Positions 3,852-33,457 of a stretch of DNA of 34,396 bases are shown here, piece by piece. The notes under the pieces are model-generated. The model did not search any database, was not told the DNA's origin, and was given only the letters and a program-made list of their open reading frames with translations. Every line of letters begins with the position of its first letter. Within the stretch, counting starts at the first letter, position 1. Location: positions 1-34,396 of the forward strand of contig KE561110.1 in the NCBI GenBank assembly GCA_000442015.1. The letters run 5' to 3'. This DNA comes from Rozella allomycis CSF55 (Eukaryota). Position numbers and translations under genes: made by a program.

Positions 3852-6637
3852 CCACTACCAGATAACCCACCACCTGCCCCGTGACCCCTTTGCATGCCCT
3901 TTGCCTGCACCTAAACATACTAAGTACTTTATCCCCCATATCAGCAATAAGCTATACAAAATACAACTTTCGTATCGGGAACTTCCTGTCCACTGCCAAA
4001 ATGCTCTACAAGATATCCATTTACTCATCCCGCATGACCTTTACCCCCAACTATACATGGATCTCAAAACCATGAAAATTAATACAATCCAAGATATTGC
4101 CACATCTGACGGTAAACATATGCTGTCGTTTAACCAATATAAACTCCGCATTACCAACTTAAAAACTCGCGAAAGACTAGAAGAACAAACACAGTGCCTG
4201 ATTCCAAAAGCATATCTTACTCTTCAACAATTACTATGTAACGGTCCCCCAGACTTTTTTCACCCTAACCAAGTGCGAACTTTAAAACCTACTTTTCAAT
4301 TCACAGTTGTCAGTAAGCGTCGCCGACAGCTCCAAGGCGATGAACACCAGCAAATAACATCGTTACCACCCTTTCGTACCAACATCCTCAATGCCNAAAA
4401 ATCAATACAATCCAAGATATTGCCACATCTGACGGTAAACACATGCTGTCGTTTAACCAATATAAACTCCGCGTTACCAATTTGAGAACTCGCCAAAGAC
4501 TAGAAGAACAAACCCAGTGCCTGATTCCAAAAGCATATCTTATTCTACAACTATTACTTTGTACCGGTCCCCCAGACTTTTGTCACCCTAACCAAGTGCG
4601 AATTTTAAAACCTACTTTTCAATTCACAGTTATTAGTAAGCGACGCCAACAACTCCAAGGCGACGAAAATCAGCAAATAACATCGTTACCACCCTTTCGT
4701 ACCAACATCCCCAATGCCAACTTGACTGGCCATCAGGACCTATCTCGAACATACGTTACCGATGGCTCCACGGATCTACAAACCAACAAGCAAGGCTCGA
4801 GTGCTTTAATGATTGCAAACCACAATCCAAGAGAAATCAACTCAGGATTAATGAAACGTGCAATTCTCGCAAACCTTGAATCTCCTCTCTACTTAACTTG
4901 CGCGGAATTAATTGCAATAATTAAATGTCTCACTCACACCAAGGCATCCACCAACATTNCCCCAATGCCAACTTGACTGGCCATCAGGACCTATCTCGAA
5001 CATACTTTACCGATGGTTCCACGGATCTACAAACCAAAAAGCAAGGCTCGAGTGCTTTAATGATTGTAAACCACAATCCAAGGGAAATCAATTCAGGACT
5101 AATGAAAAGTGCAATTCTCGCAAACCTTGAATCTCCTCTTAACTCAACTTGCGCGGAACTAATTGCAATAATTAAATGTCTCACTCACGCCAAGGCATCC
5201 ACCAACATTACTATTTACACTGACTCGCAAAACTGCGTTGACATTGTTGGCCAAATGCACACTAAAGCAACCTGGACAGAATCTGACCGCCTTCGGTACA
5301 ATAACCAAACTATTATTGATCTTCTTCATCACTTATTGCTTCAGCGAACCGCGACCACAACCCTCGTCAAGGTTAAGGCTCACACTAGACTTAAATGGAA
5401 TGAGAATGCAGACGCACTCGCCAAATATGCATCCACAACACGAAAACAGGAACGCCTCTACCACTATAATCGTAACGATTCATATAAGCTAACATACATT
5501 CACCACAACAATCACAGATATGAGATCCAACCCCAGAAGGTCATTGGCCTCTTATATCACAGTAACTACTCCCACACCATTCACGTGGCACTCTCCAAGC
5601 ACTTTAACACTGCACCATATACAATTGAGTTAAAACTCACACTAAAACTTATTCAACCAATTAGGAATAACATCTATTTCTTATCAACAACTGAAACAGC
5701 CTTCCGAATCAAATATTTCTCCAACGCACTACCATGAAACTGCAGAAAAAGAATACCAAGACCTTGCGCCAGATGTCACTACCCATCCGAAACAACCCAC
5801 CACTTTATCGAATGCCCTGCTAACCTTCAGCGCCTCGATGATATGCGCCTTGCACTAGAACATTCACTAGCCACGGAAGAATTTCCAGACTCACTCCCCC
5901 CATCAAGGACGTCCTCACGACACTCAGCGTTTATAACAACAACCTCCTGTTTACCCCAACCGGGAAGGCCATCATAACGTCACAACTCATTGAAGTACTT
6001 NAACCCATCCGAAACAACCCAACACCTTATCGAATGCCCCGCTAACTTTCAGCGCCTCGATGATATGCGCCTTGCACTAGAACACTCACTAGCCGCGGAA
6101 GAACTTCCAGACTCACTTCCCCCCATCAAGGATGTCCTCACGACACTCGGCTTTTATAACTACAACCTCCTGCTTACCCCAACCGGGAAGGCCATCATAA
6201 CGTCACAACTCATTGAAGTACTTCACCCTTTCGCCATCCCGCGCCATAAACTTGAAAAACTCTTTCTCATCATCATGAGCCATTGGCTATTTATCATTTA
6301 CAAAACAATATGGAAGACTCGCAACATAGTTAACAACCAATATCAACAACCACCCGCCCAACAACCACCACCCCCTCGTGGNTATGGCAGACTCGCAACA
6401 TAGTTAACAGCCAATATCAACAACCACCCGCCCAACAACCACCACCCCCTCGTGGGGGACAAAGACCCAACAAAGGCATCTTACCGAGGAAATACCTCGA
6501 CTACACTCTGAGCTAATTATGAAAACCACTCATACACAATTACCCGTATATCGACCGATTCTCCTCTTTATCCCCCCGCGCAAACGCAAGAGGAAGACGG
6601 ATCACTATCGGGAGGGAACTGTGGGACCGTAATCTCT
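3852..6637 (+). mobile_element. Non-LTR retrotransposon (LINE) 3' half with RNase H and C-terminal CCHC finger; mosaic of several diverged copies
   Basis: RNase H motifs YFTDGS, AELIAI, IYTDSQ and VKVKAH..NENADALAK; CARCHYPSETTHHFIEC at ~5766-5820. Overlapping non-identical segments restart after N4396, 4959, 6001 and 6382. Confidence 0.88.
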
Positions 6638-12057: not shown

Positions 12058-13029
12058 TTAAAATTTGAAAACTTGATCTTTCTGGTAATTCAATTTGGCT
12101 AATAACCCGCTTAATTCGCCTTGACTATAATCAGGAGCCTTTGGACCACATACAGCGCCTACCATTCCAGGCGGTCCGCAAATGAGAATCTTAGAGTATT
12201 CGTCATCAGGAGAAGGCATGTATTGTTTAACGAGTTTCTCGTTTACATACCCTGATTCGCCATGCCAATTTGGAGACGGCTTATCCAAGAGGTACACTAT
12301 GTTAAATCTTTCTGGATTATTTAAGACAAGCTTCTCTAAGTCGGTTCTCAGTAAGATGTCATCTTCAGTTACGTTTCCAAATATTAAAGTAAACTTAGTT
12401 TTGTCGTTTGGATTTCTCATAGCCTTTTGTAATACTTGAAACATTGGCGTGATCCCGGTACCCCCTGCTATCATCCCAATATGCTTAAATTCATTGCTAT
12501 GATACTCAAACTTTCCAATGGGACCCTTAAAAGATAAAAAATCGCCAACTTTTAAGTTTCCAATGTAAGATGATAGTTTTCCATCAGGATAAGCTTTTAC
12601 CACCATACTGAATTCATTTTTGCCATCTTCTTCAATTGTCACAGGTGTGTAGGGACGGACAACAGTTTCTCCGTTAATATCAGCTTTTACTAATAAAAAA
12701 CTTGACACTGGCATTTTATAAGCCTTATCACTAGGAACTTGAAATGTTATTTTGTATGTATTTGGGGATATCTGTAATTTTTTACTCACCTATTATTCAC
12801 GAGCCAAAAATCATACCTTAAAATCTCTAAATTCCTCTGGAGAGAACATGCTTTCTTGGCTACTTTTATCGTAATCGCAAAACTTATAATAGGAGTAAGC
12901 ACCCGCAAGTATGGTTGCAGCCCCGATACCTAGCGGTAGTCCAAAATTCGATTTGAAGCTTTGTTTATTGCTGTAAGGTCGGGAGAAGGTCAAAGGAATC
13001 CTAGAGGCGTACTTTGATACTCCAGTTGA
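12058..13029 (-). CDS. MCR1: NADH-cytochrome b5 reductase, mitochondrial Mcr1-type (5' truncated at N13030); intron 12790-12816
   Basis: RPYTP, YPDGKLS, GMIAGGTGITPM, CGPPGM and SQGELSGLL...QVFKF; N-terminal presequence plus TM anchor. Confidence 0.9.
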
Positions 13030-13030
13030 N

Positions 13031-13826
13031 TATCCTTAAATAACAAATTTAAGTAAAAAGAATCTTTTAAAGAATTCAACAAGTTAGAATTCTTTATCTG
13101 TTCTACCAGGAACTTCACAGCGTCAATATTCTCTGCTGTTGTTGAAATCCTTAGCGCATCTAGCAAAAGCTTTTCCATATCGACATTATTTAAATTAAAA
13201 TAAGTATTTAAAACACTCGCGAAAAATTCACCCATAATATTTCTACGAGCTCCTCCTTGAATAAGACTTTCAAGCAAACTAATTGCGTTTTTGACTGTGC
13301 TAAATTCTTCGGAATCTATTGAAAGGTCATCAGATGATGATAATGTCGAAAAAACTTTTGGCATTCGTTTTTTTCTTGAATTTCTCGATGTTGTCGTCAG
13401 CGGTTTTCTTTTTATCAATTTAATCATCATCATAACGTTTTCCATCTTACGCGCGTAAAGATAAGCCTTAATGATAGAAAATTCATTTTCCAAAAGTATA
13501 GAGGGCTTAAAATGTTGGCTGCCCATAATTGAGACAAACAATTCAGGATCTTTAACCAAACTTGATGTTTCCAACAGTTTTACATTTTGAACAAAGACTT
13601 CTTCAGATATAATGGAAAGTACATCTTTAATAATGATCATGTTGTTTCCAAGCAATGCACCTTGCATAATCTCATAGTTGTTTTGCTGCCATGCACTTTG
13701 ATCCAACGTATTCTTAAGTTCCACGAATGTTTCCAAATCACCTTTTGATACCGCTTCCAAAACCTTTGAGAATGGATCTTCTGCGGCAATAAGAAAGGTA
13801 AAGAATAACAGAGTGAAAAAAAACAT
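13031..13826 (-). CDS. Secreted helical/ankyrin-like protein (3' truncated at N13030)
   Basis: Signal peptide MFFFTLLFFTFLIAA; ankyrin-like segments EAVSKGDLETFVEL and ENIDAVKFLVE; basic patch RNSRKKR. Confidence 0.75.
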
Positions 13827-14212: not shown

Positions 14213-16957
14213 TTAAAATAGAGGCAAGTATTTGAGGCTTGAGTTTTCGTCAAATATTTTGGTTTCAGATGTATGTTCAATGTGGAAAAACCTTAAAGCT
14301 CCACAAGGAATCAAGATTTCAGAATCGACTTGGCATTCTTTGGAGAATGGATTTAATCCAAATTCACATTTTACAGATTTTGCAACTTTGTTCCCTTCGA
14401 CATACAAGTTGACTTTAACATGATCAACGATTTCATGTTTATATTTAATGGTTGGGATAAAGAACCTGTAATGAGCGCTGTGATGAAAATTGACTCTGTA
14501 GAACAAGTATCTTGAATTTTCAATAGCGTCGTCACCCATCTCCGCCATGACTGAATTTAAAATAGAATCTGATTGAGGACAGAATTTGTAACTTTCGTCG
14601 TTTAACGCGAATTTCTAACTTTTTAATGTTTGATAAATTTACCTTGACGTTGAGCTTATAATCTTCAACAAGAACAGACAATGCTTTGTATTGACTATAG
14701 AGAGCATCATTGAAATCAGAGAAAATCATTTGAGACTTCATTCTGCTGGATGGAGAGTTATTAGAATTTGGAATGGAACATTTGAGTAACTTTGAAGAAT
14801 ATTTATGAGATATTGCCATGTTACCATACCAAACCTCACCATTGTATTTTTTATCAGGCATTTCGGAATCTGAAATTTTAATTTTCAGAATGCTTTTATT
14901 CACCATGGAAGATTCAATTTTTGGAAAAGGCCCACCAGTCTTGTGTAAGCGATTAGCCCTTTGATTGTAAACCAAATGGCCAGGAAGTGTTAAATAGATA
15001 TTAGTATGTGAAATAGGAGCGTCTTTATAACTTAAATATATATTTCTCTTGTCTGTAACCTCTCGAATGTCACATAAATCCAAAGCCATAAGTTCCGGGA
15101 TGAATCTGATTTGTACGTTGGTTTTATCTTTTTCAGATTCATTATTACCCAAGGTGGCAGCAATGTATTCTTTGGGGCTGTTTGTATTCATTTGAAAGCA
15201 AACTACTTCAACTTGAACTCCGTGGACTAATATTGTGTAATTTCCATCCTCGAACGATTTTATTCCTTGCGCTATAAATTTGCGTTTAATGTCAACGCAA
15301 GATTCTATTTTCTTTATTTTATTTTTTAAATCTACCAAATTGTAAACAACAGGCGGTTTAATTTCAATATCGGTGATCGAAATAGACGTCGCAGCCAGCT
15401 TGGAGGTCATTGAGAAACCAACGTACTTGATTCCACTCAAATCACTTTTAAATAAGGTTAAATCAATCACTACAGCATCTTGCAATGTTGATTTTTGCCC
15501 TTTATTCAAAACCAAGAAATTATCGTAAATATTAATCGCGTAACTTTCATACACACCCTGGCTTACCAAAAAATTAGGAATAAAATCAACAGAACAAACT
15601 TCCTTGTTTGAATCACGAATTGAACATATTTTATAACTTGAACGGTCGAGATTCAAAGTTAAAGTGAATCGAATGTGCTGAGGAGCTGAAGCAAACAATA
15701 TGTTGATATTATCTTGAATCATTGCTTTGAATGAAATGTGGCCACTTCCATAATTCTCAAGAACGTTATTGCTAGAGAAATAGTTCTTTCCTCCTTCAAT
15801 TAAAAAATCCACATCACCAAGGGCTGGAACACCATCATGGAACATTTCAGTCGCAACTTTAACGATCGGACGTAATTTTTTGTATTTTAAATCTTCAAGC
15901 AGAAAATAGATGGGTTTTAGCGTAAATCCTATAACAGACGGATACTCCTCTACAGTAGAGAGCCATTTCTCAAATCCTTCTTTCATTCCCCCTTGATTAT
16001 TAACCTTTTAAATTTTAACGTAAAAATTACTTCTGTCACCATTTTAGAAGCTTCAGGTGATCCTCCTTGAGCGTTATAAGTTACTTTTGAATTTTCTTTG
16101 AATTTCTTGACCTTTTCTTCTTCATCGTGACCGACACTTAGAGATACTGAAGCAAATGCATTTTTGAAATAAGCTGAAGCCTGAACTCCCAGAGAATGGT
16201 GATTTTCAGAAGAAGATTTGGACTTTTCCGCTTGAACGACAAGGCTACCTCCAAAGTCGGCTGAATTAACAAAAGTTGTACCATAAATTCGAAAGAATCT
16301 GTATAAATGAGGATACAAAATTTTGAGCAATTCTATGGTAGAGGCACCTTCGTTTTGTTCAATAATATCTAGCCATTCTTCAACAAGTCCTTTAAAGTTC
16401 TCATCGGCGTATTCCATACTTAGGGGATTCAAATGAATGTGGAAACATTTAGATTTGAAAACATACACAGCAATAAAATTTTCACTTGTTTTACATTCAA
16501 TAGAAAACTTACTTTGACGTTTTTTCTGAATTTTGACTATTCACATTTGAGCTAAACCCAAAACTGGCTCCAAAATAGTTAACATCAGCCTGTGCTGAAA
16601 CTTCAAGAGATTTTGCTTTTGAATATTCTTCTTGAGATAAATATATCTCGACATCGGTATTCAAAGAGTACAATGGAAAAACGTTTCTATTACATTATTG
16701 AATTTTAAATTACAAGTCATCTGGAACAAGATATTTTTTAAATTTCTTCTTCATTGTGAGGCCAACATCCCTAAAGATGCTTCGTTTGATATTATCGTAA
16801 AACCCAAAGCTTTTGGTGACATCTTCCATTTGTGTGAGAAAGTCTCTTTACCGTAAGATTTCCCAACAAAGTTCCAACCAGGAATGAAATATTCTTTTTC
16901 ATCTGAACAATAAATGAGCGACAAATATGCAAAAGTAAAAAACAACAAAAGATTCAT
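14213..16957 (-). CDS. Secreted MACPF/perforin-like protein A (~868 aa): MACPF + FAMeT-like + GON-like domains; introns 16823-16851, 16687-16713, 16485-16512, 16005-16030, 14615-14642
   Basis: Signal peptide; IPGWNFVGKSYD; MACPF signature YGTTFVNSADFGG; AQGGSP; FEKWLSTVEEYP..LKPIY; IKYVGFS; SCVDI...DGNYTILVHG..V.C..M..PKEY. Five tiny introns give an intact 2607-nt frame. Confidence 0.88.
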
Positions 16958-16991: not shown

Positions 16992-19748
16992 ATGTTGAAA
17001 ATATTTATTTGTTGCATTTTTCTTGTTCAAGTGGCACTTGGGCAAGTTCTGAGAATTGTTTCGGATAGTCTTCATGAAGCAAAGAGATTGGCTGTTGAAG
17101 ATGCCCCAACTGATCAGGCACCATCTCAACCTGAATCACCAAAAGTTGTCTACGATGCGATCCCTGGGACTATGTTTGTTGGTTCTGGATATGGTATACA
17201 TTTTATTTTTTATTAAAAAGATGCCAGTAAACAATATGGAACATTTGAAAATATGCGACATGACTTGATAATCAAACAAGGCGGTGATGTTTCGCCTGAT
17301 AAAATATTCAATGAAAAATATTTAGTTCCAAGCAACGTGTAAATTATTAAACATAAAATTGAAAGTGATGCTTTTGGAATTTGGAAAACTTTTGCTGAAA
17401 CAAATTCCTTCTCGTCTGAAGCAGAATTTATTTCTTCTCTTGGAAATAGAGTTGCTGGCGAAGGTGGTGGATCATGCTTTGGAATAAATGTTGAGGCTTC
17501 TGCTTCATTTTCATCAAAAAAAGATAAATCTTCAAAAGAGTACATTGCATTTATGAAAATTAAATAGATTAAAAAAGACAATTGTATTTGAGACAAGAGT
17601 GGAATTATTTGAATTGGTGCTGCAACCAAATAGTCTTCAAGAAAATGTTGCGCCCGTTTTTAAAGACTTGATTAAAGTGGCTCTTGACAAATATAATGAA
17701 ACCAAAGACGCAGGTGTTTCTGAAAGAATTAAGAAAATGTATGAATACTATTATTACTTCTTTGACGCCTGTGGAACTCATTATGTTAAATCTGCCGTTC
17801 TTGGAGGGCACTTATTTATAAAGATTGAAGCTTCCGTTCAAGATCAAAGTGAAATGAACAAAATTGAAGCAGCAGCTTCTGCATATGTTTCAGGGCTTTG
17901 GGGTGGCGGTGGTGCGTCAACTTCTTACAGTGATGAATCTGGAGAAAAAAAATTACAAGAAAAAAGTGTAATCACATTTCAAGGCTTTGGAGGTGATCCT
18001 TTAAGTGGCTTGGTTGTAAATGCTGACAATGATATGAAAACTGCCTTTGAATTTTGGCTTCAGACTGTTCCTGATAAACCAAATATTGCGCGGTTCACAA
18101 TCGATCCGATTTATAACCTATTAGACAAAGATTCTCAAGTTTTATATTCTGATATGAAAATAGCCTATGAAATGTATTTGAAAAGAGTCCCTCCAAAGGG
18201 AGACAGTAAGCAATTATAACGCTTCTAACTTTAGATTATTTTGATCTTCTTCCGTATGTTCCATCTGTATGGAGTTCTTCCAATGTTTTAACCACCCCTG
18301 GCAATGGATTGATAACATTTGACGCTGTTGTTTCAGATTCATTTTCCGTTCAGTTTGCAACACTTCCTCAATCGCCTGTTTTGAAAATTAACTTTGATGT
18401 TTACAAGGGTTGCTCATTTCAAATATTTCAAGAACAGAAAAATTCTATTACCGGGATACTTGATTTGGTGGTGCCAAAAAGCGTTCTAACCTCTTTTTGG
18501 ATACAACTTGAAAATGGAGAAAATTTATATGTTGGATTTGGCAATCCTCCTGGACATGGATCTAAACCTCTTTACTCTAAAAGAAACTTGGCATCTTATC
18601 GTGATTTACTGTCTAAAGTTGAATTCGTTGGATTTACTTCATCTGGTTCAAGAGCCACAAGCTTAATTGGATTAAATATTCAAGAGCCTGCTCACATTTA
18701 TCAAAAACAATTTCAAACATGTCAGGATTACATGAATGACCATCCATCTGAAAGAGGGGGTCTCAAAACGCTTATTTGGCATGGTTTTCCCGTTCAAATT
18801 TACTGTTACAAAGACAACAATGATTGGAAGGAATACTTGGAATTGCTAGTCTCTGCCACAGGTGTTTACAAAAATATTCAAAATGACTTTCGCTACATAC
18901 GAATTTTACCAGAATACATGGCCTTGGATCTTTGTGATACGAAAATGTCAACAGATACAGCGGGTTATCCGGGTGTTTTTGATGCAAAAAAATTGAATGT
19001 CGACACAAATGCATCTGCTTCTATAACATTGCCACCTTCATTTGCCTTTCACGAATTTGCTAATAACATGGTAGGCCAAGGTGATATCCAATCATTTGTC
19101 TTTCAAATAAGCGATAATAACAATGTTTTATCCATTAAATCTAACGGAGACATTGAAGAAGCTGAAATCTGGTATGGAAATCCATCATTAAGTTATTCCA
19201 TTCCTGACTTGGAAACATGCCAAACTGATATAGGTCATCCTCATAAGGTTTTAGTTGTTTACTTGAGACAAATAATGGATGTAACTGACAATCCCTTTCG
19301 AACTTCCTATGGCATGCCCCCTGTTTGTCCAGGTGGCTCATTTCAAATCCCCGTTGAAGCGGCCACTGCCATAAAGGATGAAAGCTCAATTAATGTAACC
19401 TATAATGATGCTGCTATTGAATTGGATAATTTACAAGATATTTCTTTAGTTTACCTTGTAGACTTTCCGTATTCTTCCAAATATTGGATTGGTCTGGATA
19501 TTGAAAATTTCAAAGGTGAAGTTAACGCTGTTTTAATCGACGGAATATCAGTCTTAGATCATCCTTTAAACGAAGAAAATAAGCACTTCCTTATTCATCA
19601 CGTAATTCCTTGTGGTGTCCATAAAGTCCTAATTAAATTTAACAAAAATAATAATTCTAAGATGCATTTAATGACTGAAGATGAGATCGCGGTTTTCAAT
19701 GGTTTCATACTGTCGACTGTGATCAGCATAGATGACGAAAATAAATAG
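16992..19748 (+). CDS. Secreted MACPF/perforin-like protein B (~881 aa): MACPF + FAMeT-like + GON-like domains; introns 17194-17220, 17339-17365, 17540-17567, 18206-18234
   Basis: Signal peptide MLKIFICCIFLVQVALG; IPGTMFVGSGYD; CGTHYVKSAVLGG; GFGGDP; FEFWLQTVPDKP..IDPIY; SFWIQL..LYVGFG..VEFVGFTS; TCQDY...VQIYC...KEYLEL. Spliced frame of 2646 nt is intact. Confidence 0.9.
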
Positions 19749-19977
19749 GCATAACATTTCTTTAATTCTCGCTTTAGTCTTCTGTCTTTTTGATGTCTTT
19801 CTTTCTTTGTCACCCAATTGTTTAGCCCTTCGTATTCTCAAATTCTCTTCTCAGTTGTTTCTCCTTGTATACTTAAAATATATTGTTTTGAAATGTCACA
19901 TTGTACCAAGTTTCGCTATGTAGCATAACGATTTTTCATTTTCAACTTGGACCCCTGTACCCTGGTTTCCATTTTTT

Positions 19978-22496
19978 ATGATTATTTTTATCGTGCTGAT
20001 ATTTTTTAGCCTTTTTTCCTCTTTAAACGGAAAAATACTGAAAAGAGAAGATGGTGATGATCCCACTAGAATATCAGATCGTTACCTGTCCCAAATAAAG
20101 GACTCTTTTGAAATAGGAGAAAATCATATTTCTGGAAAAAGCGATGACATTGCCTTAAATTATGGTGTATCTCTCTCTGGAAATAAAATAGACCAAATCC
20201 ACAAGGATTTCCTGTCGCTAGTCAAGCAAGCAGTTCTCTTTGGCAAAAGTCCTCAGGGCCAATGTTTTTCTTTGGTTAACGGAAAAATGAAATTTGAAAA
20301 AGACTTTGAAAATCTAATATTGTTTTTGGGATGCTTTAGATGGCTTGAGAATGAGCCCAAATTTCTAAAATTTGCCAAATTTGACGAAGATCAACTTCGG
20401 GAATGGAAAACACTTGGCGCTGAATTGGAGAAAAGGACTTTTTCGGCTATTGAATCATCTATTACAAGTAATAAGTGCAAGGATTTTATTGATGAAAATC
20501 CCAAAATTTCAAAATTATCAAACAAAGAGAAATTGAATGAGATCGCCGCGGGATATCTGGTAGGACCTTGTAAAACCGATTTTCTAAAATTTTTGGAATC
20601 ACTCATTCTCAAAAATAAAAATTTCAAACTTAAAATGAGTAAATATGCTGCAATTATGGGTAAATTCGCACATGAAGATAAAGAAAATCCTTTCCACTAT
20701 ATTGTAAATAATGATTACACATCGAGTCAAAAAGGCAATTTTAGGATTCCATTTGAACATTTAGACCTTGTTAAATACAACAGGGACAGTTATGTTAATC
20801 CTGGTTACTATTCAAACATTGAAACCTTCTACGAAATACTACAAACACAAGTCAAATTTGATGAAAAAAAAAGAATTTATCTCTTAACGATTGGTTTAAA
20901 ACCTCTGTCTAATCTCTCTGTTGAGAGAATATTGATGGACACTGAAACAAAGGTGGAAGTCAGTCCTATAAAATTCGAAAAGCTTGTACGAGATGAATTT
21001 TCCTACTTTGTCAATACCGTGATATATGAAGGAAAGAAAAGAAAAGCTAAGAGATTCGGAAGGACTGATTTAGAAGACGCATATGTACTTTAATTTATAA
21101 CTCTATAATATAGATTGGATTCCATTCCATCACCGTACCAATTGTAGCGCACAGAATCTCGACAAATGAAGTCACATTTTACGCCTACGATCCTGCGATC
21201 GTTACTTGGAATCCTAAAGTATCCAGCTCCTTTATTGAAATTAATGAATATATAGGTTTAATATCGTCTGGTTTGAGGAAGGAAAATCCGGAGAGTAAAT
21301 TGTACACCTTTATTGCCACCTATGAAAGAACACTGACCAAAGGTAGTGTTTTGCAATCCCTAAGTGTGGCTTTGTACAATGATTTTTCCCGTTTAATTAA
21401 TTTTCAAAGACATGATGATCCCAAAAAGAGACCACTCAAGCTGACAGATAAAGAGAAACCAGAAGAAATTCCACTGAAGGATATTCGTGGCGAAAGGTAT
21501 TGGTGCAGTTTTAAAGATCTGCTTGGACATTACGCTGCTCAAAACACTTTGCTAGATGGAAAGAAACGTCGAGTTATGTATGCCGCATCATTAGTTAAAT
21601 TCCAAGACCTTTTAAAGAGCACCTTGACAAAATTTAAATTCCCAAATACTGAAATTCTGGAATCTCTTCAGTTTTTAATTACTTGGGTTGCTGAAAATTT
21701 GGCTTATACACTTCCTTGTCTTGAGGAAGACGTTGATTTTTACAGTGATGGTGCCATTGATCAAATTACCATGTCTGTGAGCTTCAATGATGACATGACA
21801 GACGAACAACTTTATCTTGGGATCCATAATACGCCATATCAAAGAATAAAGAGAGCCAATCAGAAGACTGGAATTATGAGTAAATGTGCGTCCCCATTTA
21901 AATTTACGACTGAACCTTTTTTTCAGTCAAACTCAATTTTACATTACCTAGTTGATAAAGACTTGCAGTTCGAAGAGAAACCAGCTGGATGGCCGCGTGG
22001 ATCATGTGCTGAAGATCAGTGTTGTACTTTGGCCATTACGGGTGGGTTTCCGTTTAACAAGGAAAAATTGCCAAATCCTATTGTACCAGATGAAAAGAAT
22101 AGAAAAAAATCGTTAGCTGTTTTATCTTTTAGATATTACCCCAGAGATCGATTGTTTCTAACTCCAGTTGATAGATGCAAGAATTGCCAATCATATCGTC
22201 AAGCAAAGAACTCTGAAGGAATATTCCAAGATATTTCGTACCAAGGTATCTCTTTCACGGATTGGATGTACTATAATATGCTTCACACATCTGGGCAAAG
22301 CACAGCGTTTGGACTTCCCAAAGGAACAATTCTCTCTGAAAAAGATGCTTCAATCGTTGGCCATTTAAAGAAGATTAAGAAATACATGTCCGTTAAAGAA
22401 AACTACAAGGCTCTTAGAGATCACGAAGAAGATCACGTTTACGCAAAGAGCAAAGCATTTTCTTATGTCGATGTTCATCAAAATATTAATATGTAG
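19978..22496 (+). CDS. Secreted ~829-aa protein with C-terminal Zn-dependent deaminase-like domain; intron 21085-21113
   Basis: Signal peptide followed by a KR site. A 29-nt GT-AG intron fuses the 371-aa and 407-aa ORFs in frame. Motifs GWPRGSCAE (CAE at 22005-22013) and DRCKNC (22176-22187). Confidence 0.75.
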
Positions 22497-22582
22497 TGCG
22501 ATGGGTATTTAAATAAATTTTAAAATTAATTATCGTTTTTTAAAAATTTTCATGTTGAAAAAAAATCACACCCTTGTTTCAA

Positions 22583-25500
22583 ATGAAATCTTTGGTATTC
22601 TTTTGTATTCTCTTGATCTCTATTGTTTGTTTTGATATTAAACAACATATAAGAGAGGATAATGTTGAAAAGGTTCGTCAAATAGTTGATAATGCCAGCT
22701 ACTATGAAAAGCGTCGTTACTTGACTTCTGAAATTTTAAGTTCTTGTTTTTCCAACTCAAATGAAGCTAAAATGAAAATATTTAACTATTTGTTGGAAAG
22801 TGTTGATAAAGTTGGCAAACTTGATAAAGTCTTGATTGAAAATAACTTTCGAATATTGTATGATTTGAATAACAGAATATTAATGGATAAAGAACCCACT
22901 GGTCTGTGTCAAATCAGCAGTACTTTGACAAGTCGGTTTGCTTCGTCCCGGGATGTTCAGCAAGCATTAAGCCAATATGTTCTTCGTGTAGCGAAAAGAG
23001 ACTTATCAGTCGATACTGTTGGCATTCTAGTTTTGCCGATTATAAAATCTGTTCAAAAATGCTATCAGGCTAATATTGGAATGAAGTTAGTGGAAGAGAA
23101 TTGGTTATTAATGATACAAAATATTATTGAAGAAGAGAAAAATAGTGAGTTTGTGTATTCAATGATAGAATTTGTTGTTTTGACTAAGAAAGAGAACGAG
23201 TTGTTTGATGAAGAGTTTGCGATAACATTGATTGAGTCCAGGCATAGAAGTTTCTATATTCTGCATTTTCTTAAAATTGTGGAATATTTTTCACTTGAAA
23301 AGAGTTTTGGCGCATTGTTAGGCGTGCCTGAATTAAGAAAAGCGGTTGAAGAGGAAAAATTTGAAGAATTTGACAAAATTCAAAGATTATTGAAACGAAT
23401 TGGAATTGAAAAGCAAATTGCGTCTTTTGATAATTTCATTCTAGCCCGTGAAGCATCTAAAAAGAATAATCTAGATTTTCTTAAAATTCTTCTTGAATGG
23501 GATTATGTAAATTCGCTGGCTTCTGAAAAGTACGAAATAATCAAAAATGCTTTTGAAGATAAGAGATTACTGAATTATATTTGTGAAAATCCTTCATTGC
23601 CCACTGTGATTATGAAGAGCCAAATTTCCAAAGAAAATAAAGTTTTCCGATTTTTACTTGAAAACTGTAAGGTTGATGATATAGCACTTGGAAATATCAT
23701 GGACTTAATTATCAAAAACAATGATCTAGCAATTTACGAAATTTTCAAATCTGTTGAAGTGGGGAAAAGATTTATAAATGAGAATTTTCACACTTACATT
23801 CTCATGTCGGCTTCCAAAGAAAAATTAATGTTCTTTTATGACCTGTTTATAATTAAAATGCACTTTTCTTTTACAATTGTGGAATCTGACTTTCAAATAT
23901 CTCTTAACAACGCTATTCTTAAATCTGATGATCCAATCAGTTTGTTAGGAATTGTCAGCAAATTTTATGGATTGAAAATTTATCCGATTTTTTTCAATTA
24001 TGATGATTATAACTTGGTCTATTCTCATATTTTAACATCCGAAGGAGATTCGCTATTGAAATCTTGGTTTATTAATGTTATTTGTCAAAAGGAAGAATCA
24101 ATAAATCATTTCATTTTTTCTGTTGACTCAAAGAAAGCTGCAATTCTTCATCAATTTATGGTTGATCAACAATATTACAAAGACAACAACAAATTTCCCT
24201 TATATGTCCGTATATTGTTTATGGACAAGAAAGGATTTGAATATCTCTTTGACAAGGATCAAATATTCTTTTTGGAATTTTATCAATCCACCTATAAAAA
24301 TCATTTGGATGATGCAATGAACTCAATTACTAAATTGAGAAATGAAGATAACGTTTATGTATGGGTAAAGGAATATTCTCGAGATTTCAAAAATCATCTT
24401 TCATATCATACTTTGAAAGCATTTGCTGAAATAAGCTCTCAAATTCATAATGATGATGATTTTAATTCACAAATGGCCGATATTTTACAAAGTCATCTGG
24501 GGTTTATTAATCAGGGCGTGAAATGCATTGTTGAGCCTTTTAAGCAAGAAACACCAACTGAAGAAAATTCTTCTTATTATCCTGAGGTAGCGCAAGGGTT
24601 TAAAATTGGCCCAAAGTTGAAACGACAGCTATTAATTGATCACGAAATTAAATATTTAACAAATGCTTTCAAAGATCCTTCATCTTTCTGGAGACATTTG
24701 AATCATTTAAATGTGATCTATTCTGGTTTTATTGTTGTTGATGAATTGTTATATTTTATTAAATATCGTGATTTCATAAAAGGAGAATATTTAGCCAGTT
24801 GGATTGAAAGATTATTTGAAGTTTATCCACAACTGAAATCTGAAATTGCTAAGAGCAAAAATTTTCTTTCACTGCTTGAAAGTGATGATATTTCTATAGT
24901 TTTAAATCACATTTATGTTCATATAATTACTGATTTCTATGAATTTTTTACTTCGGTCAATAATTGTGATGACTCTGCACGTTTGTATAGTGACTGGGTA
25001 AGTATATTTCGAGCGTATCCAATCAAATTGAGATTAAATTCTGGATTTGGAAGCATGATCAATTTGGAATTATTTGCTGATGTGATAAGTTTGCGTTATC
25101 GTATGTTTTTCCCCTGTTCACAAGGGGATGATAAAGAATTTCTGACTTTCACTATATCGAGAATGAGAGCTGCCTTATTCGTTTCAGAGTACGAATTTTC
25201 AAAATTTAATCTAATTCGTGCGATTGAAAAGATTGAAAACAGTTTATCTTCAATCAATTTGAAATTTCATCCCTTTTTAAAAAGGGCTCTGAACCTTGTA
25301 AACGAAGATGATTTCTCATCTAAAATGTTCATCCTCTTGAAATTGGAATATCTTCAAAAAATCGATCAAAATGTTATTGAACCAAAAGTTGACTCCATAA
25401 TTTATGGCTGCGCATACTATTTTGACGTAGCTTTTCGTTATAACATCCGCGATTTCACTATATTCGACAAAAGCTATCCCTTACGTGAATTTAAAAAAAG

Positions 25501-25621
25501 TGTAGAAAGGTTTTTTTTTGAATATATGTGTGGTGGACGCTTCCATGATGCCATCTTTGCCGTGATACGTACACCAGGTGCTTTATCTAGATTTTTTCAA
25601 CAATGGCTTCCAGAAGCATGA
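22583..25621 (+). CDS. Large intronless secreted helical-repeat protein (~1012 aa) with degenerate ankyrin-like segments
   Basis: Signal peptide MKSLVFFCILLISIVCF; LAREASKKNNLDFLKILLE; 3-kb uninterrupted ORF; AATAAA after the stop. Confidence 0.85.
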   Translation: MKSLVFFCILLISIVCFDIKQHIREDNVEKVRQIVDNASYYEKRRYLTSEILSSCFSNSNEAKMKIFNYLLESVDKVGKLDKVLIENNFRILYDLNNRILMDKEPTGLCQISSTLTSRFASSRDVQQALSQYVLRVAKRDLSVDTVGILVLPIIKSVQKCYQANIGMKLVEENWLLMIQNIIEEEKNSEFVYSMIEFVVLTKKENELFDEEFAITLIESRHRSFYILHFLKIVEYFSLEKSFGALLGVPELRKAVEEEKFEEFDKIQRLLKRIGIEKQIASFDNFILAREASKKNNLDFLKILLEWDYVNSLASEKYEIIKNAFEDKRLLNYICENPSLPTVIMKSQISKENKVFRFLLENCKVDDIALGNIMDLIIKNNDLAIYEIFKSVEVGKRFINENFHTYILMSASKEKLMFFYDLFIIKMHFSFTIVESDFQISLNNAILKSDDPISLLGIVSKFYGLKIYPIFFNYDDYNLVYSHILTSEGDSLLKSWFINVICQKEESINHFIFSVDSKKAAILHQFMVDQQYYKDNNKFPLYVRILFMDKKGFEYLFDKDQIFFLEFYQSTYKNHLDDAMNSITKLRNEDNVYVWVKEYSRDFKNHLSYHTLKAFAEISSQIHNDDDFNSQMADILQSHLGFINQGVKCIVEPFKQETPTEENSSYYPEVAQGFKIGPKLKRQLLIDHEIKYLTNAFKDPSSFWRHLNHLNVIYSGFIVVDELLYFIKYRDFIKGEYLASWIERLFEVYPQLKSEIAKSKNFLSLLESDDISIVLNHIYVHIITDFYEFFTSVNNCDDSARLYSDWVSIFRAYPIKLRLNSGFGSMINLELFADVISLRYRMFFPCSQGDDKEFLTFTISRMRAALFVSEYEFSKFNLIRAIEKIENSLSSINLKFHPFLKRALNLVNEDDFSSKMFILLKLEYLQKIDQNVIEPKVDSIIYGCAYYFDVAFRYNIRDFTIFDKSYPLREFKKSVERFFFEYMCGGRFHDAIFAVIRTPGALSRFFQQWLPEA

Positions 25622-31564: not shown

Positions 31565-33457
31565 ATGGGTTCCCCTTCTACTCGCTTACAAGACTTACCA
31601 ATCGAGCTGGTTATGAAAATTCAAAGTTTTCTTCCAGAACACGACTGTATTTCATTCCTTTTATGTTTCCATTCCGTTGAGTTATTTAATGAAGCGTGCA
31701 AGATAAAATCGGATTATAATAAAATTTGTTCAGCTGGAGCAACAAGGTATCTACGCATATTTCTACCCAAATTAAAAAAAACAAGTGACTCTTTCTTAAC
31801 AAGTGCCAGTAGATTCGGACGCACTAATGTCTTGGACTGGTTCGTGAAAAGAGGTTTCGAATTGAAATGCCCTGAAGATGCTATAAACTGGGCCTGTAAC
31901 AATGGCCATGTTGATGTTCTTGAGTGGTGGAAGAAAAGTGGTTTAGAGTTGAAATGGAGTGAAGATGCTATGGATCTTGCTAGTGAAAATGACCATGTTG
32001 ATGTTCTTGACTGGTGGAAGAAAAGTGGTTTAGAGTTGAAATGGAATAAAGATGTTATGATCTATGCTAGTGGATATGGTCACTTGAATGTTCTTGAATG
32101 GTGGAAAAATAGTGGATTAGAGGTGCAATGGAGTGAAGATGCTATGGATCTTGCTAGTGAATATGGTCATGTTAAAGTGCTTGAATGGTGGAAGAAAAGT
32201 GGTTTAGAGTTGAAATGGAATAATTGGGCTATGGACAAGGCTAGTAAAAATGACCATGTAAATGTTCTTGAATGGTGGCAGAATAGTGGTTTACAGTTGA
32301 AATGGAGTATTAGGGCTATGGACTGGGCTAGTTGGAATGGTCACTTGAATGTTCTTGAATGGTGGAAAAATAGTGGTTTAGAGTTGAAATGGTGTGAATT
32401 TGCTATGAACTGGGCTAGTCAAAATGGTCACTTGAATGTTCTTGAATGGTGGAAAAATAGTGGAGTAGAGTTGAAATGGAGTGAAGATGCTATGGACTGG
32501 GCTGGTAGAGATGTCCATATTGATGTTCTTGACTGGTGGAAGAAAAGTGGTTTAGAGTTGAAATGGAGTGAAGATGCTATGGATCTTGCTAGTGAAAATG
32601 ACCATGTTGATGTTCTTGACTGGTGGAAGAAAAGTGGTTTAGAGTTCAAAGACGCTATGAACTGGGCTAGTGAATATGGTCACTTGAATGTTCTTGAATG
32701 GTGGAAGAATAGTAGATTAGAGTTAAAATGGACTTATTTGGCTATGGGTTATGCTAGTTCAAATGGTCATGTTAATGTTCTTGAATGGTGGAAGAATAGT
32801 AGATTAGAGTTGAAATGGAGTGAAAATGCTATGAACAGCGCTAGTGAATATGGTCATGTTAAAGTGCTTGAATGGTGGAAGAAAAGTGGTTTAGAGTTGA
32901 AATGGAGTGAAGATGCTATGGATCTTGCTAGTGAATATGGTCACTTGAATGTTCTTGAATGGTGGAAGAATAGTGGTTTAGAGTTGAAATGGAGTGAAAA
33001 TGCTATGAACAGCGCTAGTGAATATGGTCATGTTAAAGTGCTTGAATGGTGGAAGAAAAGTGGTTTAGAGTTGAAATGGAGTGAAGATGCTATGGATCTT
33101 GCTAGTGAATATGGTCACTTGAATGTTCTTGAATGGTGGAAGAATAGTGGTTTAGAGTTGAAATGGAGTGAAAATGCTATGAACAGCGCTAGTGAATATG
33201 GTCATGTTAAAGTGCTTGAATGGTGGAAGAAAAGTGGTTTAGAGTTGAAATGGAGTGAAGATGCTATGGATCTTGCTAGTGAATATGGTCACTTGAATGT
33301 TCTTGAATGGTGGAAGAATAGTGGTTTAGAGTTGAAATGGAGTGAAAATGCTATGAACAGCGCTAGTGAATATGGTCATGTTAAAGTGCTTGAATGGTGG
33401 AAGAAAAGTGGTTTAGAGTTGAAATGGAGTGACGATGCTATATATGAACAGCGCTAG
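31565..33457 (+). CDS. F-box-like + ankyrin-like tandem repeat protein (~19 repeats of 29 aa)
   Basis: LQDLPIELVMKIQSFL (F-box); repeats WSEDAMDLASEYGHLNVLEWWKNSGLELK (87-nt unit). The last repeat is frameshifted by a 4-nt duplication near 33440. Confidence 0.9.
   Translation: MGSPSTRLQDLPIELVMKIQSFLPEHDCISFLLCFHSVELFNEACKIKSDYNKICSAGATRYLRIFLPKLKKTSDSFLTSASRFGRTNVLDWFVKRGFELKCPEDAINWACNNGHVDVLEWWKKSGLELKWSEDAMDLASENDHVDVLDWWKKSGLELKWNKDVMIYASGYGHLNVLEWWKNSGLEVQWSEDAMDLASEYGHVKVLEWWKKSGLELKWNNWAMDKASKNDHVNVLEWWQNSGLQLKWSIRAMDWASWNGHLNVLEWWKNSGLELKWCEFAMNWASQNGHLNVLEWWKNSGVELKWSEDAMDWAGRDVHIDVLDWWKKSGLELKWSEDAMDLASENDHVDVLDWWKKSGLEFKDAMNWASEYGHLNVLEWWKNSRLELKWTYLAMGYASSNGHVNVLEWWKNSRLELKWSENAMNSASEYGHVKVLEWWKKSGLELKWSEDAMDLASEYGHLNVLEWWKNSGLELKWSENAMNSASEYGHVKVLEWWKKSGLELKWSEDAMDLASEYGHLNVLEWWKNSGLELKWSENAMNSASEYGHVKVLEWWKKSGLELKWSEDAMDLASEYGHLNVLEWWKNSGLELKWSENAMNSASEYGHVKVLEWWKKSGLELKWSDDAIYEQR

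What the first reader, a model, noticed from the sequence alone, without database searches (positions are those of the whole stretch)
19978..22496. Secreted protein with a toxin-type Zn deaminase motif (CAE...CxxC) directly downstream of the MACPF pair
Seen: a 29-nt intron joins two ORFs into one ~829-aa protein with a signal peptide and a KR processing site. The C-terminal part has WPRGSCAE, then a beta-strand-like LAVLSFRY, then PVDRCKNC, and a Lys-rich tail. Known: the [H/C]xE...CxxC arrangement defines the cytidine-deaminase-like fold, and the GxCAE variant typifies YwqJ-like polymorphic-toxin deaminases. Inference: a nucleic-acid-deaminating effector secreted into a host cell, and a possible new base-editing enzyme scaffold.
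Basis: partly seen in the sequence, partly recalled or inferred. Interest (0 to 1): 0.8.

Follow-up and report, generated by a model that had tools for sequence, protein, structure and literature searches.

The report
Secreted Rozella protein, possible zinc deaminase
A gene of the fungus-infecting parasite Rozella encodes a secreted protein family seen nowhere else; its best-conserved stretch carries the zinc-deaminase signature, but the fold could not be confirmed, so a DNA- or RNA-editing effector is plausible and unproven.

Summary
Exon 1 (19978-21084) and exon 2 (21114-22496) join across a 29-nt GT..AG intron into an 829-aa protein. It has a hydrophobic N-terminus, a KR site and the motifs GSCAE, LAVLSFRY and RCKNC. 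Named protein records place it in Rozella allomycis CSF55. An exhaustive search of 1.84 billion protein representatives found only three relatives, all from Rozella. One is a chimeric model of this same gene; two are paralogs at 30-35% identity. CAEDQCC and RCxNC are invariant and lie in the best-conserved part of the exon-2 product.

The deaminase reading is only partly supported. The motif order, the spacing and both inserts fit the published description of the YwqJ clade. A YwqJ profile that I built is the best match among seven families tested (hhalign P 0.0075; hmmsearch 5.2 bits). A language-model search returned a YwqJ-tagged cluster for two paralogs. However, the profile signal disappears when the five catalytic columns are masked. 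Pfam, NCBIfam and PDB sequence searches found no deaminase. AlphaFold2 failed twice (pLDDT 37 and 30), so the fold is untested. No RNA data exist for the intron.

I put a deaminase-fold effector at about 0.5 and an unrelated Cys-rich secreted protein at about 0.4.

The parts
19978..21084 (+). Exon 1, 369 codons (P0002). Holds the signal-peptide-like N-terminus, the KR site and the N-terminal conserved region.
   Evidence: Aligns with paralogs P0004 and P0005 (tblastn).
19978..20031 (+). Signal-peptide-like hydrophobic N-terminus (residues 1-18, MIIFIVLIFFSLFSSLNG).
   Evidence: Read directly from the sequence. P0004 starts the same way (MKIFLIALSLLLGINA). No signal-peptide predictor was available.
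20041..20046 (+). Dibasic KR (residues 22-23), a candidate Kex2-type processing site within KI[LF]KR.
   Evidence: KILKR here and KIFKR in P0004. Cleavage is inferred, not shown.
21085..21113 (+). 29-nt intron, GTACTTTAATTTATAACTCTATAATATAG.
   Evidence: Its removal restores the frame. The paralog is continuous across the junction. Neighbouring introns are 27-29 nt, GTA..AG. The DNA is confirmed in 3 runs. No RNA evidence.
21114..22496 (+). Exon 2, 460 codons plus the TAG stop (P0001).
   Evidence: Homologs were found with it.
21750..22448 (+). Conserved C-terminal domain (exon-2 residues 213-445), the candidate deaminase-fold domain.
   Evidence: Alignment A3. The conservation profile peaks at residues 291-310 and 331-390.
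21831..21989 (+). About 53-residue insert between the candidate strand 2 (LYLGIHN) and CAE. It contains a His in all three paralogs.
   Evidence: hhalign places its LHxL on the YwqJ 'LHPL'. The His is not in one MAFFT column.
22005..22013 (+). C298-A299-E300: the candidate first zinc ligand and catalytic Glu, within the invariant CAEDQCC.
   Evidence: Invariant in 3 of 3. Aligned to YwqJ G.CAE.
22113..22136 (+). LAVLSFRY, candidate strand 3.
   Evidence: Conserved L.V.S.RYY. DSSP calls it a strand in both AlphaFold2 models, at unusable confidence.
22176..22187 (+). C355-K-N-C358: the candidate second and third zinc ligands, within the invariant R-C-x-N-C.
   Evidence: Invariant in 3 of 3. Aligned to YwqJ PCxxC. 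It lies 57 residues after C298.
16992..19748 (+). Context: upstream MACPF gene. Its stop is 230 nt before this gene's ATG.
   Evidence: Pfam MACPF. tblastn of P0003.
14213..16417 (-). Context: divergently oriented MACPF+GON paralog.
   Evidence: Pfam MACPF and GON. 30% identity to P0003 by tblastn.

Best explanation
The gene encodes an 829-aa protein of Rozella allomycis. It enters the secretory pathway through an N-terminal signal peptide and is probably trimmed at a conserved KR site (inferred). Rozella grows as a wall-less cell inside Allomyces (my own knowledge), so the secreted protein would meet the host directly.

[quoted passage not shown] On this reading C298, C355 and C358 hold the zinc and E300 shuttles the proton. 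A ~53-residue His-containing insert before CAE and a ~12-residue insert before CxxC shape the substrate pocket.

The likeliest substrate is cytosine in host nucleic acid, as for YwqJ, which deaminates ssDNA cytidine. A free nucleoside or nucleotide is the lesser alternative.

Shown: the gene structure at the DNA level, the motif conservation and the restriction of the family to Rozella. Inferred: splicing, secretion, fold, zinc binding, activity and target.
For: 1. CAEDQCC and RCxNC are invariant in 3 of 3 members at 30-35% identity. They lie in the two best-conserved windows of the exon-2 product.

2. The element order is candidate strand, strand+N, long insert with His, CAE, candidate strand, ~12-residue insert, CxxC. 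This matches the YwqJ synapomorphies in Table 1 of Iyer 2011 (PMC3239186, section 10). The CAE-to-CxxC distance of 57 lies within the 42-60 range I counted by eye in my 33 YwqJ sequences printed.

3. hhalign of the 3-sequence family against my 33-sequence YwqJ alignment gave score 23.7, P 0.0075 and 86 nearly ungapped columns, with His, CAE, strand 3 and CxxC in register. 0 of 100 column shuffles reached that score, and the reversed query scored 13.1. It was the best of 7 families; the next was Rhodanese at 17.5. The Firmicute subset alone gave P 0.0016.

4. hmmsearch --max with my YwqJ HMM gave 5.2 bits, E 7.7e-4 at Z=1. 1 of 334 shuffles and 3 of 1561 natural stop-to-stop frames reached it. 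Six other HMMs scored 0.3 bits or less.

5. In the ESM Atlas the best named cluster carries PF14431 YwqJ-deaminase (on 11% of its members). It scored 0.86 for this protein and 0.85 for paralog P0006. This is a lead only.

6. There is a local CDA-like match, A-x-Y-x-x-S-N-C-A-E against CDA AAYxxxNCAE (14 columns, P 0.046).

7. Seven Cys are invariant in the exon-2 product, which fits three zinc ligands plus two disulfides (this is inference).

8. Precedent: a slime-mould locus holds three secreted AID/APOBEC-like deaminases beside two MACPF paralogs (PMC5889660, passages). Here two MACPF genes lie directly upstream.
Against: - Masking the five catalytic columns removes the hhalign signal (score 9.3, P 0.84). 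7 of 100 block-10 shuffles that keep the motif blocks reach the real score. The profile evidence is therefore motif plus spacing, not a general likeness.
- hhalign probability is only 5.2%.
- Pfam at E<=10 shows no deaminase family for this protein or for the paralogs. NCBIfam and PADLOC give nothing, and PHROGs gives only three unnamed families at E 0.02 or weaker.
- PDB sequence and profile searches show no deaminase.
- The two paralogs have SNCAE, so the Gly of Gx[CH]xE is not conserved. The insert His is not in one alignment column.
- There is no Pro before CxxC.
- The actinobacterial YwqJ subset alone gives P 0.22. dCMP_cyt_deam_1 gives P 0.14.
- A tri-Cys zinc site in a protein that passes through the oxidising secretory pathway competes with disulfide formation.
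Confidence: 0.5

Rival explanations
1. A Rozella-specific secreted protein of some other fold. The conserved cysteines form disulfides or a structural metal site, and the CAE...CxxC pattern is a coincidence. It would act by binding or by an unrelated chemistry at the host interface.
For: No significant match to any deaminase in Pfam, NCBIfam or the PDB. The profile signal vanishes when the five motif columns are masked. Secreted proteins commonly conserve Cys for disulfides. The family evolves fast and has no relatives outside Rozella.
Against: The Ala-Glu after C298 and the whole CAEDQCC block are invariant, not only the Cys. The strict CAE..CxxC pattern occurs in 8 of 20000 shuffles. Order and spacing fit the YwqJ clade, and YwqJ is the best of 7 families in two kinds of profile test. 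The ESM search finds a YwqJ-tagged cluster for two paralogs.
Confidence: 0.4
2. A deaminase fold that acts on free cytidine/deoxycytidine or a nucleotide (a CDA-like enzyme), secreted to reshape the host pyrimidine pool for a parasite that depends on host nucleotides.
For: Zn(Cys)3 with CAE is typical of the CDD/CDA clade (Iyer 2011, Table 1). There is a local match A.Y..SNCAE to CDA AAY...NCAE.
Against: The match covers only 14 columns (P 0.046). The PCxxCR motif is not met (RCxNCQ). The CAE-to-CxxC distance is 57, against 33 that I counted in the CDA sequences. The large inserts and the ~580-aa N-terminal extension resemble toxin or effector architectures more than a salvage enzyme.
Confidence: 0.08
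3. Not one functional gene: either two separate ORFs or a decaying gene, with the 'intron' being a frameshift.
For: No RNA evidence for splicing. The only public model found that covers the region, P0003, is a chimera.
Against: The paralog is continuous across the junction. The intron matches neighbouring 27-29-nt introns. Three DNA runs agree with no insertion or deletion in the coding part. Allelic SNPs keep both frames open, 7 synonymous and 6 conservative.
Confidence: 0.02

Closest known systems
YwqJ-like polymorphic-toxin deaminases (Pfam PF14431). B. subtilis YwqJ is an ssDNA cytidine deaminase (bioRxiv 10.64898/2026.09.29.755374; abstract and section 5 read).
   Same: [CH]xE in the candidate helix 2 (GSCAE in this copy). 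A long His-containing insert before it. An insert of about 12 residues between the candidate strand 3 and CxxC. It sits at the C-terminus of a long exported protein. It is the best-scoring family in my hhalign and hmmsearch tests.
   Different: No significant sequence match (the Pfam cut-off is not reached). The paralogs lack the Gly. It is eukaryotic, with an ER signal peptide plus KR instead of LXG/T7SS, RHS and similar systems. No immunity gene was recognised. The ~580-aa N-terminal region belongs to no known family.
CDD/CDA cytidine deaminases (within Pfam PF00383).
   Same: A CAE first ligand, so a three-Cys zinc site. The local motif A.Y..SNCAE resembles CDA AAY...NCAE.
   Different: RCxNCQ instead of PCxxCR. 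The CAE-to-CxxC distance is 57 against about 33. There are large inserts. The profile match covers only 14 columns (P 0.046). The protein is secreted and has several domains.
Secreted AID/APOBEC-like deaminases (SNADs and the dictyosteliid AADs), including the Tieghemostelium lacteum locus with two MACPF genes (PMC5889660, passages read).
   Same: A eukaryotic, signal-peptide-bearing candidate deaminase with extra conserved Cys, expanded within one lineage (3 paralogs) and lying beside two MACPF genes.
   Different: CxE rather than the HxE I recall as usual for that clade. No Pfam APOBEC or SNAD family match at E<=10. The organism is a parasite, so the protein is more likely offensive than an immune factor. 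Kinship was not tested beyond Pfam.
DddA and SsdA bacterial deaminase toxins (DddA-like is Pfam PF14428). Their use as base editors is recalled, not from a call.
   Same: A deaminase domain at the C-terminus of an exported toxin, which is the role proposed here.
   Different: No similarity was detected (hhalign score 9.5 against my 3-sequence DddA-like alignment). That shallow profile also failed to detect YwqJ, so the test was insensitive.

Membership tests
Deaminase superfamily (zinc-dependent cytidine-deaminase-like fold) | [H/C/D]xE at the start of helix 2 | tested here: met
   CAE is invariant in 3 of 3. Its helical state is not established.
Deaminase superfamily (zinc-dependent cytidine-deaminase-like fold) | CxxC at the start of helix 3, downstream of strand 3 | tested here: met
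   RCxNC is invariant in 3 of 3, 57 residues after CAE. Both low-confidence models start a helix at C355.
Deaminase superfamily (zinc-dependent cytidine-deaminase-like fold) | Three-layer alpha/beta/alpha fold with a five-stranded sheet that brings the three ligands and the Glu together | tested here: inconclusive
   AlphaFold2 gave mean pLDDT 37.5 (460 aa) and 30.4 (248 aa) with a 3-sequence alignment. Foldseek against the PDB gave no match at E<=0.001 and TM<=0.13.
Deaminase superfamily (zinc-dependent cytidine-deaminase-like fold) | Statistically significant sequence or profile similarity to a known member | tested here: not met
   Pfam, NCBIfam and PDB gave none. The best result is hhalign P 0.0075 at probability 5.2%, and it is lost on masking the 5 columns.
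Deaminase superfamily (zinc-dependent cytidine-deaminase-like fold) | Zinc binding and Glu-dependent hydrolytic deamination | not testable with these tools
   Needs protein chemistry.
YwqJ clade (PF14431) | Gx[CH]xE in helix 2 (Iyer 2011, Table 1) | tested here: inconclusive
   GSCAE in the window's protein, but SNCAE in both paralogs.
YwqJ clade (PF14431) | Insert between strand 2 and helix 2 with a conserved His | tested here: inconclusive
   An insert of about 53 residues is present, with a His in all three (ILHY, ELHE, KLHE). The His is offset in the MAFFT alignment. hhalign pairs it with YwqJ LHPL.
YwqJ clade (PF14431) | Insert between strand 3 and the CxxC motif | tested here: met
   12-13 residues lie between L.V.S.RYY and CxxC, ungapped against YwqJ. 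The strand is only predicted.
YwqJ clade (PF14431) | Score above the Pfam gathering cut-off (25.9 bits) | tested here: not met
   No PF14431 hit at E<=10. My own YwqJ HMM gives 5.2, 1.4 and 0.4 bits.
CDD/CDA clade | C[H]AE, the PCxxCR motif, and E at the end of strand 5 (Iyer 2011, Table 1) | tested here: not met
   CAE is met. PCxxCR is not met (RCKNCQ, RCRNCQ, RCDNCK). Strand 5 could not be located.
AID/APOBEC-like secreted deaminases | Match to the APOBEC, NAD or SNAD family models | tested here: not met
   No such Pfam family at E<=10. No profile-profile test was made.

The most novel reading that the evidence does not exclude
Rozella has its own, previously unrecognised clade of the deaminase fold: a three-Cys zinc enzyme with two large inserts, carried at the end of a ~580-aa delivery region. 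It is exported through the ER, cut at KR and released into the Allomyces host. There it deaminates host DNA or RNA, perhaps helped by the two MACPF pore-formers encoded next to it. This would be a mutator or editing effector passed from one eukaryote to another, and a new enzyme scaffold for base editing.
Probability: 0.3. Interest if true: 0.8.

Novelty: new variant of a known kind. Interest (0 to 1): 0.55.

Why it matters
Deaminase toxins are well known in bacterial warfare. Secreted deaminases have been predicted in animals and slime moulds. I know of no secreted deaminase effector described for a eukaryotic intracellular parasite, and my library searches found none for Rozella.

If the fold and activity are confirmed, this family would show that an early-branching fungal parasite edits or mutates its host's nucleic acids. 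It would repeat the MACPF-plus-deaminase gene pairing seen in slime moulds. It would also add a very divergent three-Cys deaminase to the enzymes that can be tried as base editors.

If it is not a deaminase, it is still a Rozella-only secreted family with a strictly conserved Cys/Glu site next to pore-forming genes.

Tried and rejected
- **Structure.** Both AlphaFold2 jobs gave unusable models: A1 (460 aa) at pLDDT 37.5 and A3 (248 aa) at 30.4. Foldseek on the second model gave only noise. I did not run VIA-align, because every residue of that model is below pLDDT 50. I considered adding YwqJ sequences to the alignment to force a model and rejected it as circular. Both jobs were then spent.
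- **Sequence searches that found nothing.**
  - The search for homologous proteins at near lengths: 0 of 4115 candidates.
  - The search for homologous proteins with profile A3: 0 of 1841 candidates.
  - The search for homologous proteins at longer lengths: only P0003 of 3772 candidates.
  - The search for related loci in genome contigs: 8 pattern matches, none confirmed.
  - The search for related loci in metagenome contigs: 590 pattern matches, none confirmed.
  - PADLOC: nothing; PHROGs: only three unnamed families at E 0.02 or weaker.
- **RNA.** No RNA holder is listed for the stretch. The one RNA run laid (X8) had nothing on it.
- **Whole genome.** None is held for this window, so paralog neighbourhoods could not be examined.
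- **HExxH.** The window's protein has HEEDH near its C-terminus, but the paralogs have HEETK and HEESK. I rejected a metalloprotease reading.
- **SsdA_C.** A sub-threshold hit on the repeat protein at 31565-33457 (24.6 bits against a cut-off of 27; no single stretch passes) is judged a repeat artefact.
- **Rows left out of my family alignments.**
  - Thioredoxin: 19 of 21 listed matches used. One had no locus and one was a short match.
  - Pribosyltran: 20 of 37 used (only those with loci).
  - Rhodanese: 19 of 51 used (those with loci, less L246).
  - DddA-like: only 3 sequences, from 3 of 251 genomes searched.
- **Not tested.** The deaminase clades OTT_1508, DYW, MafB19, Pput_2613 and BURPS668_1122 were not tested by profile.
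- **Supplements.** The supplements of Iyer 2011 and Krishnan 2018, which hold their sequence sets, could not be seen.
Full report
**What is in the sequence**

An ORF starts at the ATG at 19978 and runs to a TAA at 21091-21093. A second frame is open from 21114 to the TAG at 22494-22496. Removing 21085-21113 (29 nt, GTAC...TATAAC...TAG) joins 369 and 460 codons into an 829-aa product.

The N-terminus MIIFIVLIFFSLFSSLNG is hydrophobic and uncharged and is followed by KILKR. The exon-2 product holds WPRGSCAE (residues 293-300), LAVLSFRY (334-341) and PVDRCKNC (351-358).

Pfam confirms two MACPF genes directly upstream. One is on the minus strand (14213-16417; MACPF plus GON). The other is on the plus strand and ends at 19748, 230 nt before this gene's ATG.

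**Organism and relatives**

No whole genome is held for the window. An exhaustive phmmer search of the exon-2 product against 1,835,955,588 representatives found 3 proteins at E<=0.001. Their public records name Rozella allomycis CSF55.

- P0003 (972 aa, 99% identical over residues 96-460) is a gene model that fuses the upstream MACPF gene to the last 363 residues of this gene, skipping 18930-21404. I read it as a chimeric prediction, because the MACPF frame continues open to 19748.
- P0004 (728 aa, 35% identical) and P0005 (1029 aa, partial, 30% identical) are paralogs.

Nothing else turned up:
- Word-indexed searches at near and longer lengths and with a domain profile.
- Back-translated pattern scans of prokaryote genomes and of metagenomes.

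The family is therefore known only from Rozella.

**The intron**

No RNA run holds the stretch, so splicing is inferred. Five things support it:

- P0004 is one unbroken protein. It aligns with exon 1 from its own signal peptide and KIFKR onwards, and with exon 2 from HSITVP onwards.
- The three introns implied by the neighbouring MACPF model are 27, 28 and 29 nt. All are GTA..AG, and one has the same TATAAC.
- Contigs of three DNA runs (three studies, though they may include the source of the assembly) cover 19900-22600 with no insertion or deletion in the coding part.
- Two haplotypes differ at 13 sites. In the proposed frames, 7 of these are synonymous and 6 are conservative, and none makes a stop.
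- Without splicing, the first ATG in the exon-2 frame is at 21576. That would drop 154 residues that are conserved in the paralogs.

**Is the motif more than chance?**

In 20000 shuffles of the 829-aa composition, [HC]xE-(20-70)-CxxC appeared 328 times and CAE-(20-70)-CxxC 8 times. More telling is conservation. At 30-35% identity, CAEDQCC and RCxNC are invariant in 3 of 3. The 20-residue windows with the most invariant columns are 291-310 and 341-370. Seven Cys are invariant in the exon-2 product, which would fit three zinc ligands and two disulfides; that is inference.

**Tests of the deaminase reading by sequence**

Curated libraries give nothing:
- Pfam at E<=10 lists only a sub-threshold GIY-YIG match for this protein. 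For the paralogs it lists no deaminase family.
- NCBIfam and PADLOC are empty, and PHROGs lists only three unnamed families at E 0.02 or weaker.
- PDB sequence and profile searches show no deaminase.

Iyer et al. 2011 (PMC3239186; I read section 10 part 1, including Table 1, and some passages) define the YwqJ clade by three features: Gx[CH]xE in helix 2; a His-containing insert between strand 2 and helix 2; and an insert between strand 3 and CxxC. YwqJ itself is reported to be an ssDNA cytidine deaminase (bioRxiv 10.64898/2026.09.29.755374; abstract and section 5 read).

To test this pre-named family I collected 33 PF14431 matches from bacterial genomes: 4 of 301 genomes in one class and 27 of 401 genomes in another (29 matches). 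I aligned them.

hhalign of the Rozella domain alignment against the YwqJ alignment gave:
- Score 23.7, P 0.0075, probability 5.2%, over 86 nearly ungapped columns. The insert His, CAE, the candidate strand 3 and CxxC all fall in register.
- Controls: reversed query 13.1; 0 of 100 column shuffles reached the real score; 7 of 100 shuffles of 10-column blocks did.
- Against six other family alignments built the same way, the scores were Rhodanese 17.5, Thioredoxin 15.6, dCMP_cyt_deam_1 15.0, SelR 13.8, Pribosyltran 12.9 and DddA-like 9.5.
- As a positive control, YwqJ against dCMP_cyt_deam_1 gave probability 91%. YwqJ against the 3-sequence DddA-like alignment was not detected, which shows how insensitive shallow profiles are.

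hmmsearch --max with my YwqJ HMM gave:
- 5.2 bits (E 7.7e-4 for one comparison) for the window's domain, and 1.4 and 0.4 bits for the paralogs.
- Six other HMMs gave 0.3 bits or less.
- 1 of 334 shuffles and 3 of 1561 natural stop-to-stop frames reached 5.2 bits.

Two further results cut the other way, or complicate the picture:
- Masking only the five catalytic columns drops the hhalign score to 9.3 (P 0.84). The actinobacterial YwqJ subset alone gives P 0.22, while the four Firmicute sequences give P 0.0016 over the strand-3-to-CxxC stretch.
- A CDA-only subset gives a 14-column local match, A.Y..SNCAE against AAY...NCAE (P 0.046).

So the sequence evidence amounts to a conserved catalytic signature in the right order and spacing. 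It is not a general family likeness.

**Other leads**

The ESM Atlas feature search gave two unnamed Ascomycota clusters at the top for residues 205-460 (score 0.91, 186 of 256 features shared). The best named cluster, at rank 12 with score 0.86, has PF14431 on 11% of its members. Paralog P0006 (residues 495-728) returned the same clusters (0.90 and 0.89; YwqJ-tagged cluster at rank 10, score 0.85). By the tool's own calibration these are leads only, and the two paralogs are not independent of each other.

**Structure**

AlphaFold2 on the 460-aa exon-2 product with its two paralogs gave mean pLDDT 37.5, and 25-30 over the candidate domain. On the 248-aa domain alone it gave 30.4, with no residue reaching 50. 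Foldseek against the PDB gave no match at E<=0.001 and TM-scores of 0.13 or less. This says nothing for or against the fold.

**Context and precedent**

- The gene lies among candidate secreted proteins. These are the two MACPF genes upstream and, 87 nt downstream, a 1012-aa ORF with a hydrophobic N-terminus and no Pfam family.
- Krishnan et al. 2018 (PMC5889660, passages read) describe a Tieghemostelium lacteum locus with three secreted AID/APOBEC-like deaminases beside two MACPF paralogs. That paper does not mention Rozella, Cryptomycota or YwqJ.
- The window's copy, but not its paralogs, has three basic clusters that look like nuclear-localisation signals: KKRKAKR, PKKRPLK and GKKRRV. In an AT-rich genome this is weak evidence.

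**Verdict**

- The best explanation, at about 0.5, is a secreted effector whose C-terminal domain is a very divergent three-Cys zinc deaminase of the YwqJ/CDA type, acting most likely on host nucleic acid.
- The main rival, at about 0.4, is an unrelated Cys-rich secreted protein.
- It cannot be filed as a member of the YwqJ family. The Pfam cut-off is not met, the Gly is not conserved, and the fold is untested.
- Library searches found nothing in print on this family or on deaminases or MACPF in Rozella. The supplements of the two comparative papers could not be seen.

Noticed in passing
window 14213-16417 (-) and 16992-19748 (+): A divergently oriented pair of MACPF genes. The minus-strand copy also matches the GON domain (PF08685, E 8.7e-8), and the plus-strand copy shares the same ...PE.MALDLCD motif. 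I do not recall MACPF plus GON as a described architecture.
   Followed up: partly
window 18930-21404 relative to P0003 (RKP19276.1): The public model P0003 joins the MACPF gene to the last 363 residues of the gene studied here, across a 2.5-kb 'intron'. The MACPF frame in fact continues open to a stop at 19748, so the model looks chimeric. P0005 likewise seems fused to an upstream HEAT-like gene in place of its signal-peptide exon.
   Followed up: partly
window 22583-25621 (+) and 12990-13826 (-): Two further ORFs (1012 aa and 278 aa) with hydrophobic, signal-peptide-like N-termini and no Pfam family. The locus may be a cluster of secreted-protein genes.
   Followed up: no
window 31565-33457 (+): A 630-aa protein built from near-identical ~33-residue ankyrin-type repeats (…GHLNVLEWWKNSGLELKW…). 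It lies in a stretch with a very strong GC skew (+0.53). It gives a sub-threshold Pfam SsdA_C hit (24.6 bits against a cut-off of 27), which I judge a repeat artefact.
   Followed up: partly
window 4925-5737 (+), region 4001-6000: An ORF with RNase H (E 4.8e-16) and a weak RVT_3 match, in a stretch of higher GC (0.42) and GC skew -0.36. It is probably a retroelement remnant.
   Followed up: no
window 20575-20637 and 21213-21275: Two tight clusters of allelic SNPs (5 and 7 sites) appear as alternative contigs in runs X1 and X3 but not X2. Two haplotypes of this gene therefore exist. Both keep the frame.
   Followed up: partly
window 21034-21054, 21414-21434 and about 21555-21572: Three basic clusters like nuclear-localisation signals (KKRKAKR, PKKRPLK, GKKRRV). 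They are present in this copy only. The first lies in an insertion that the paralogs lack, just before the intron.
   Followed up: no
window, 19 positions (e.g. 346, 13030, 25784): Nineteen isolated single N bases are scattered through the window. None lies in the gene studied.
   Followed up: no
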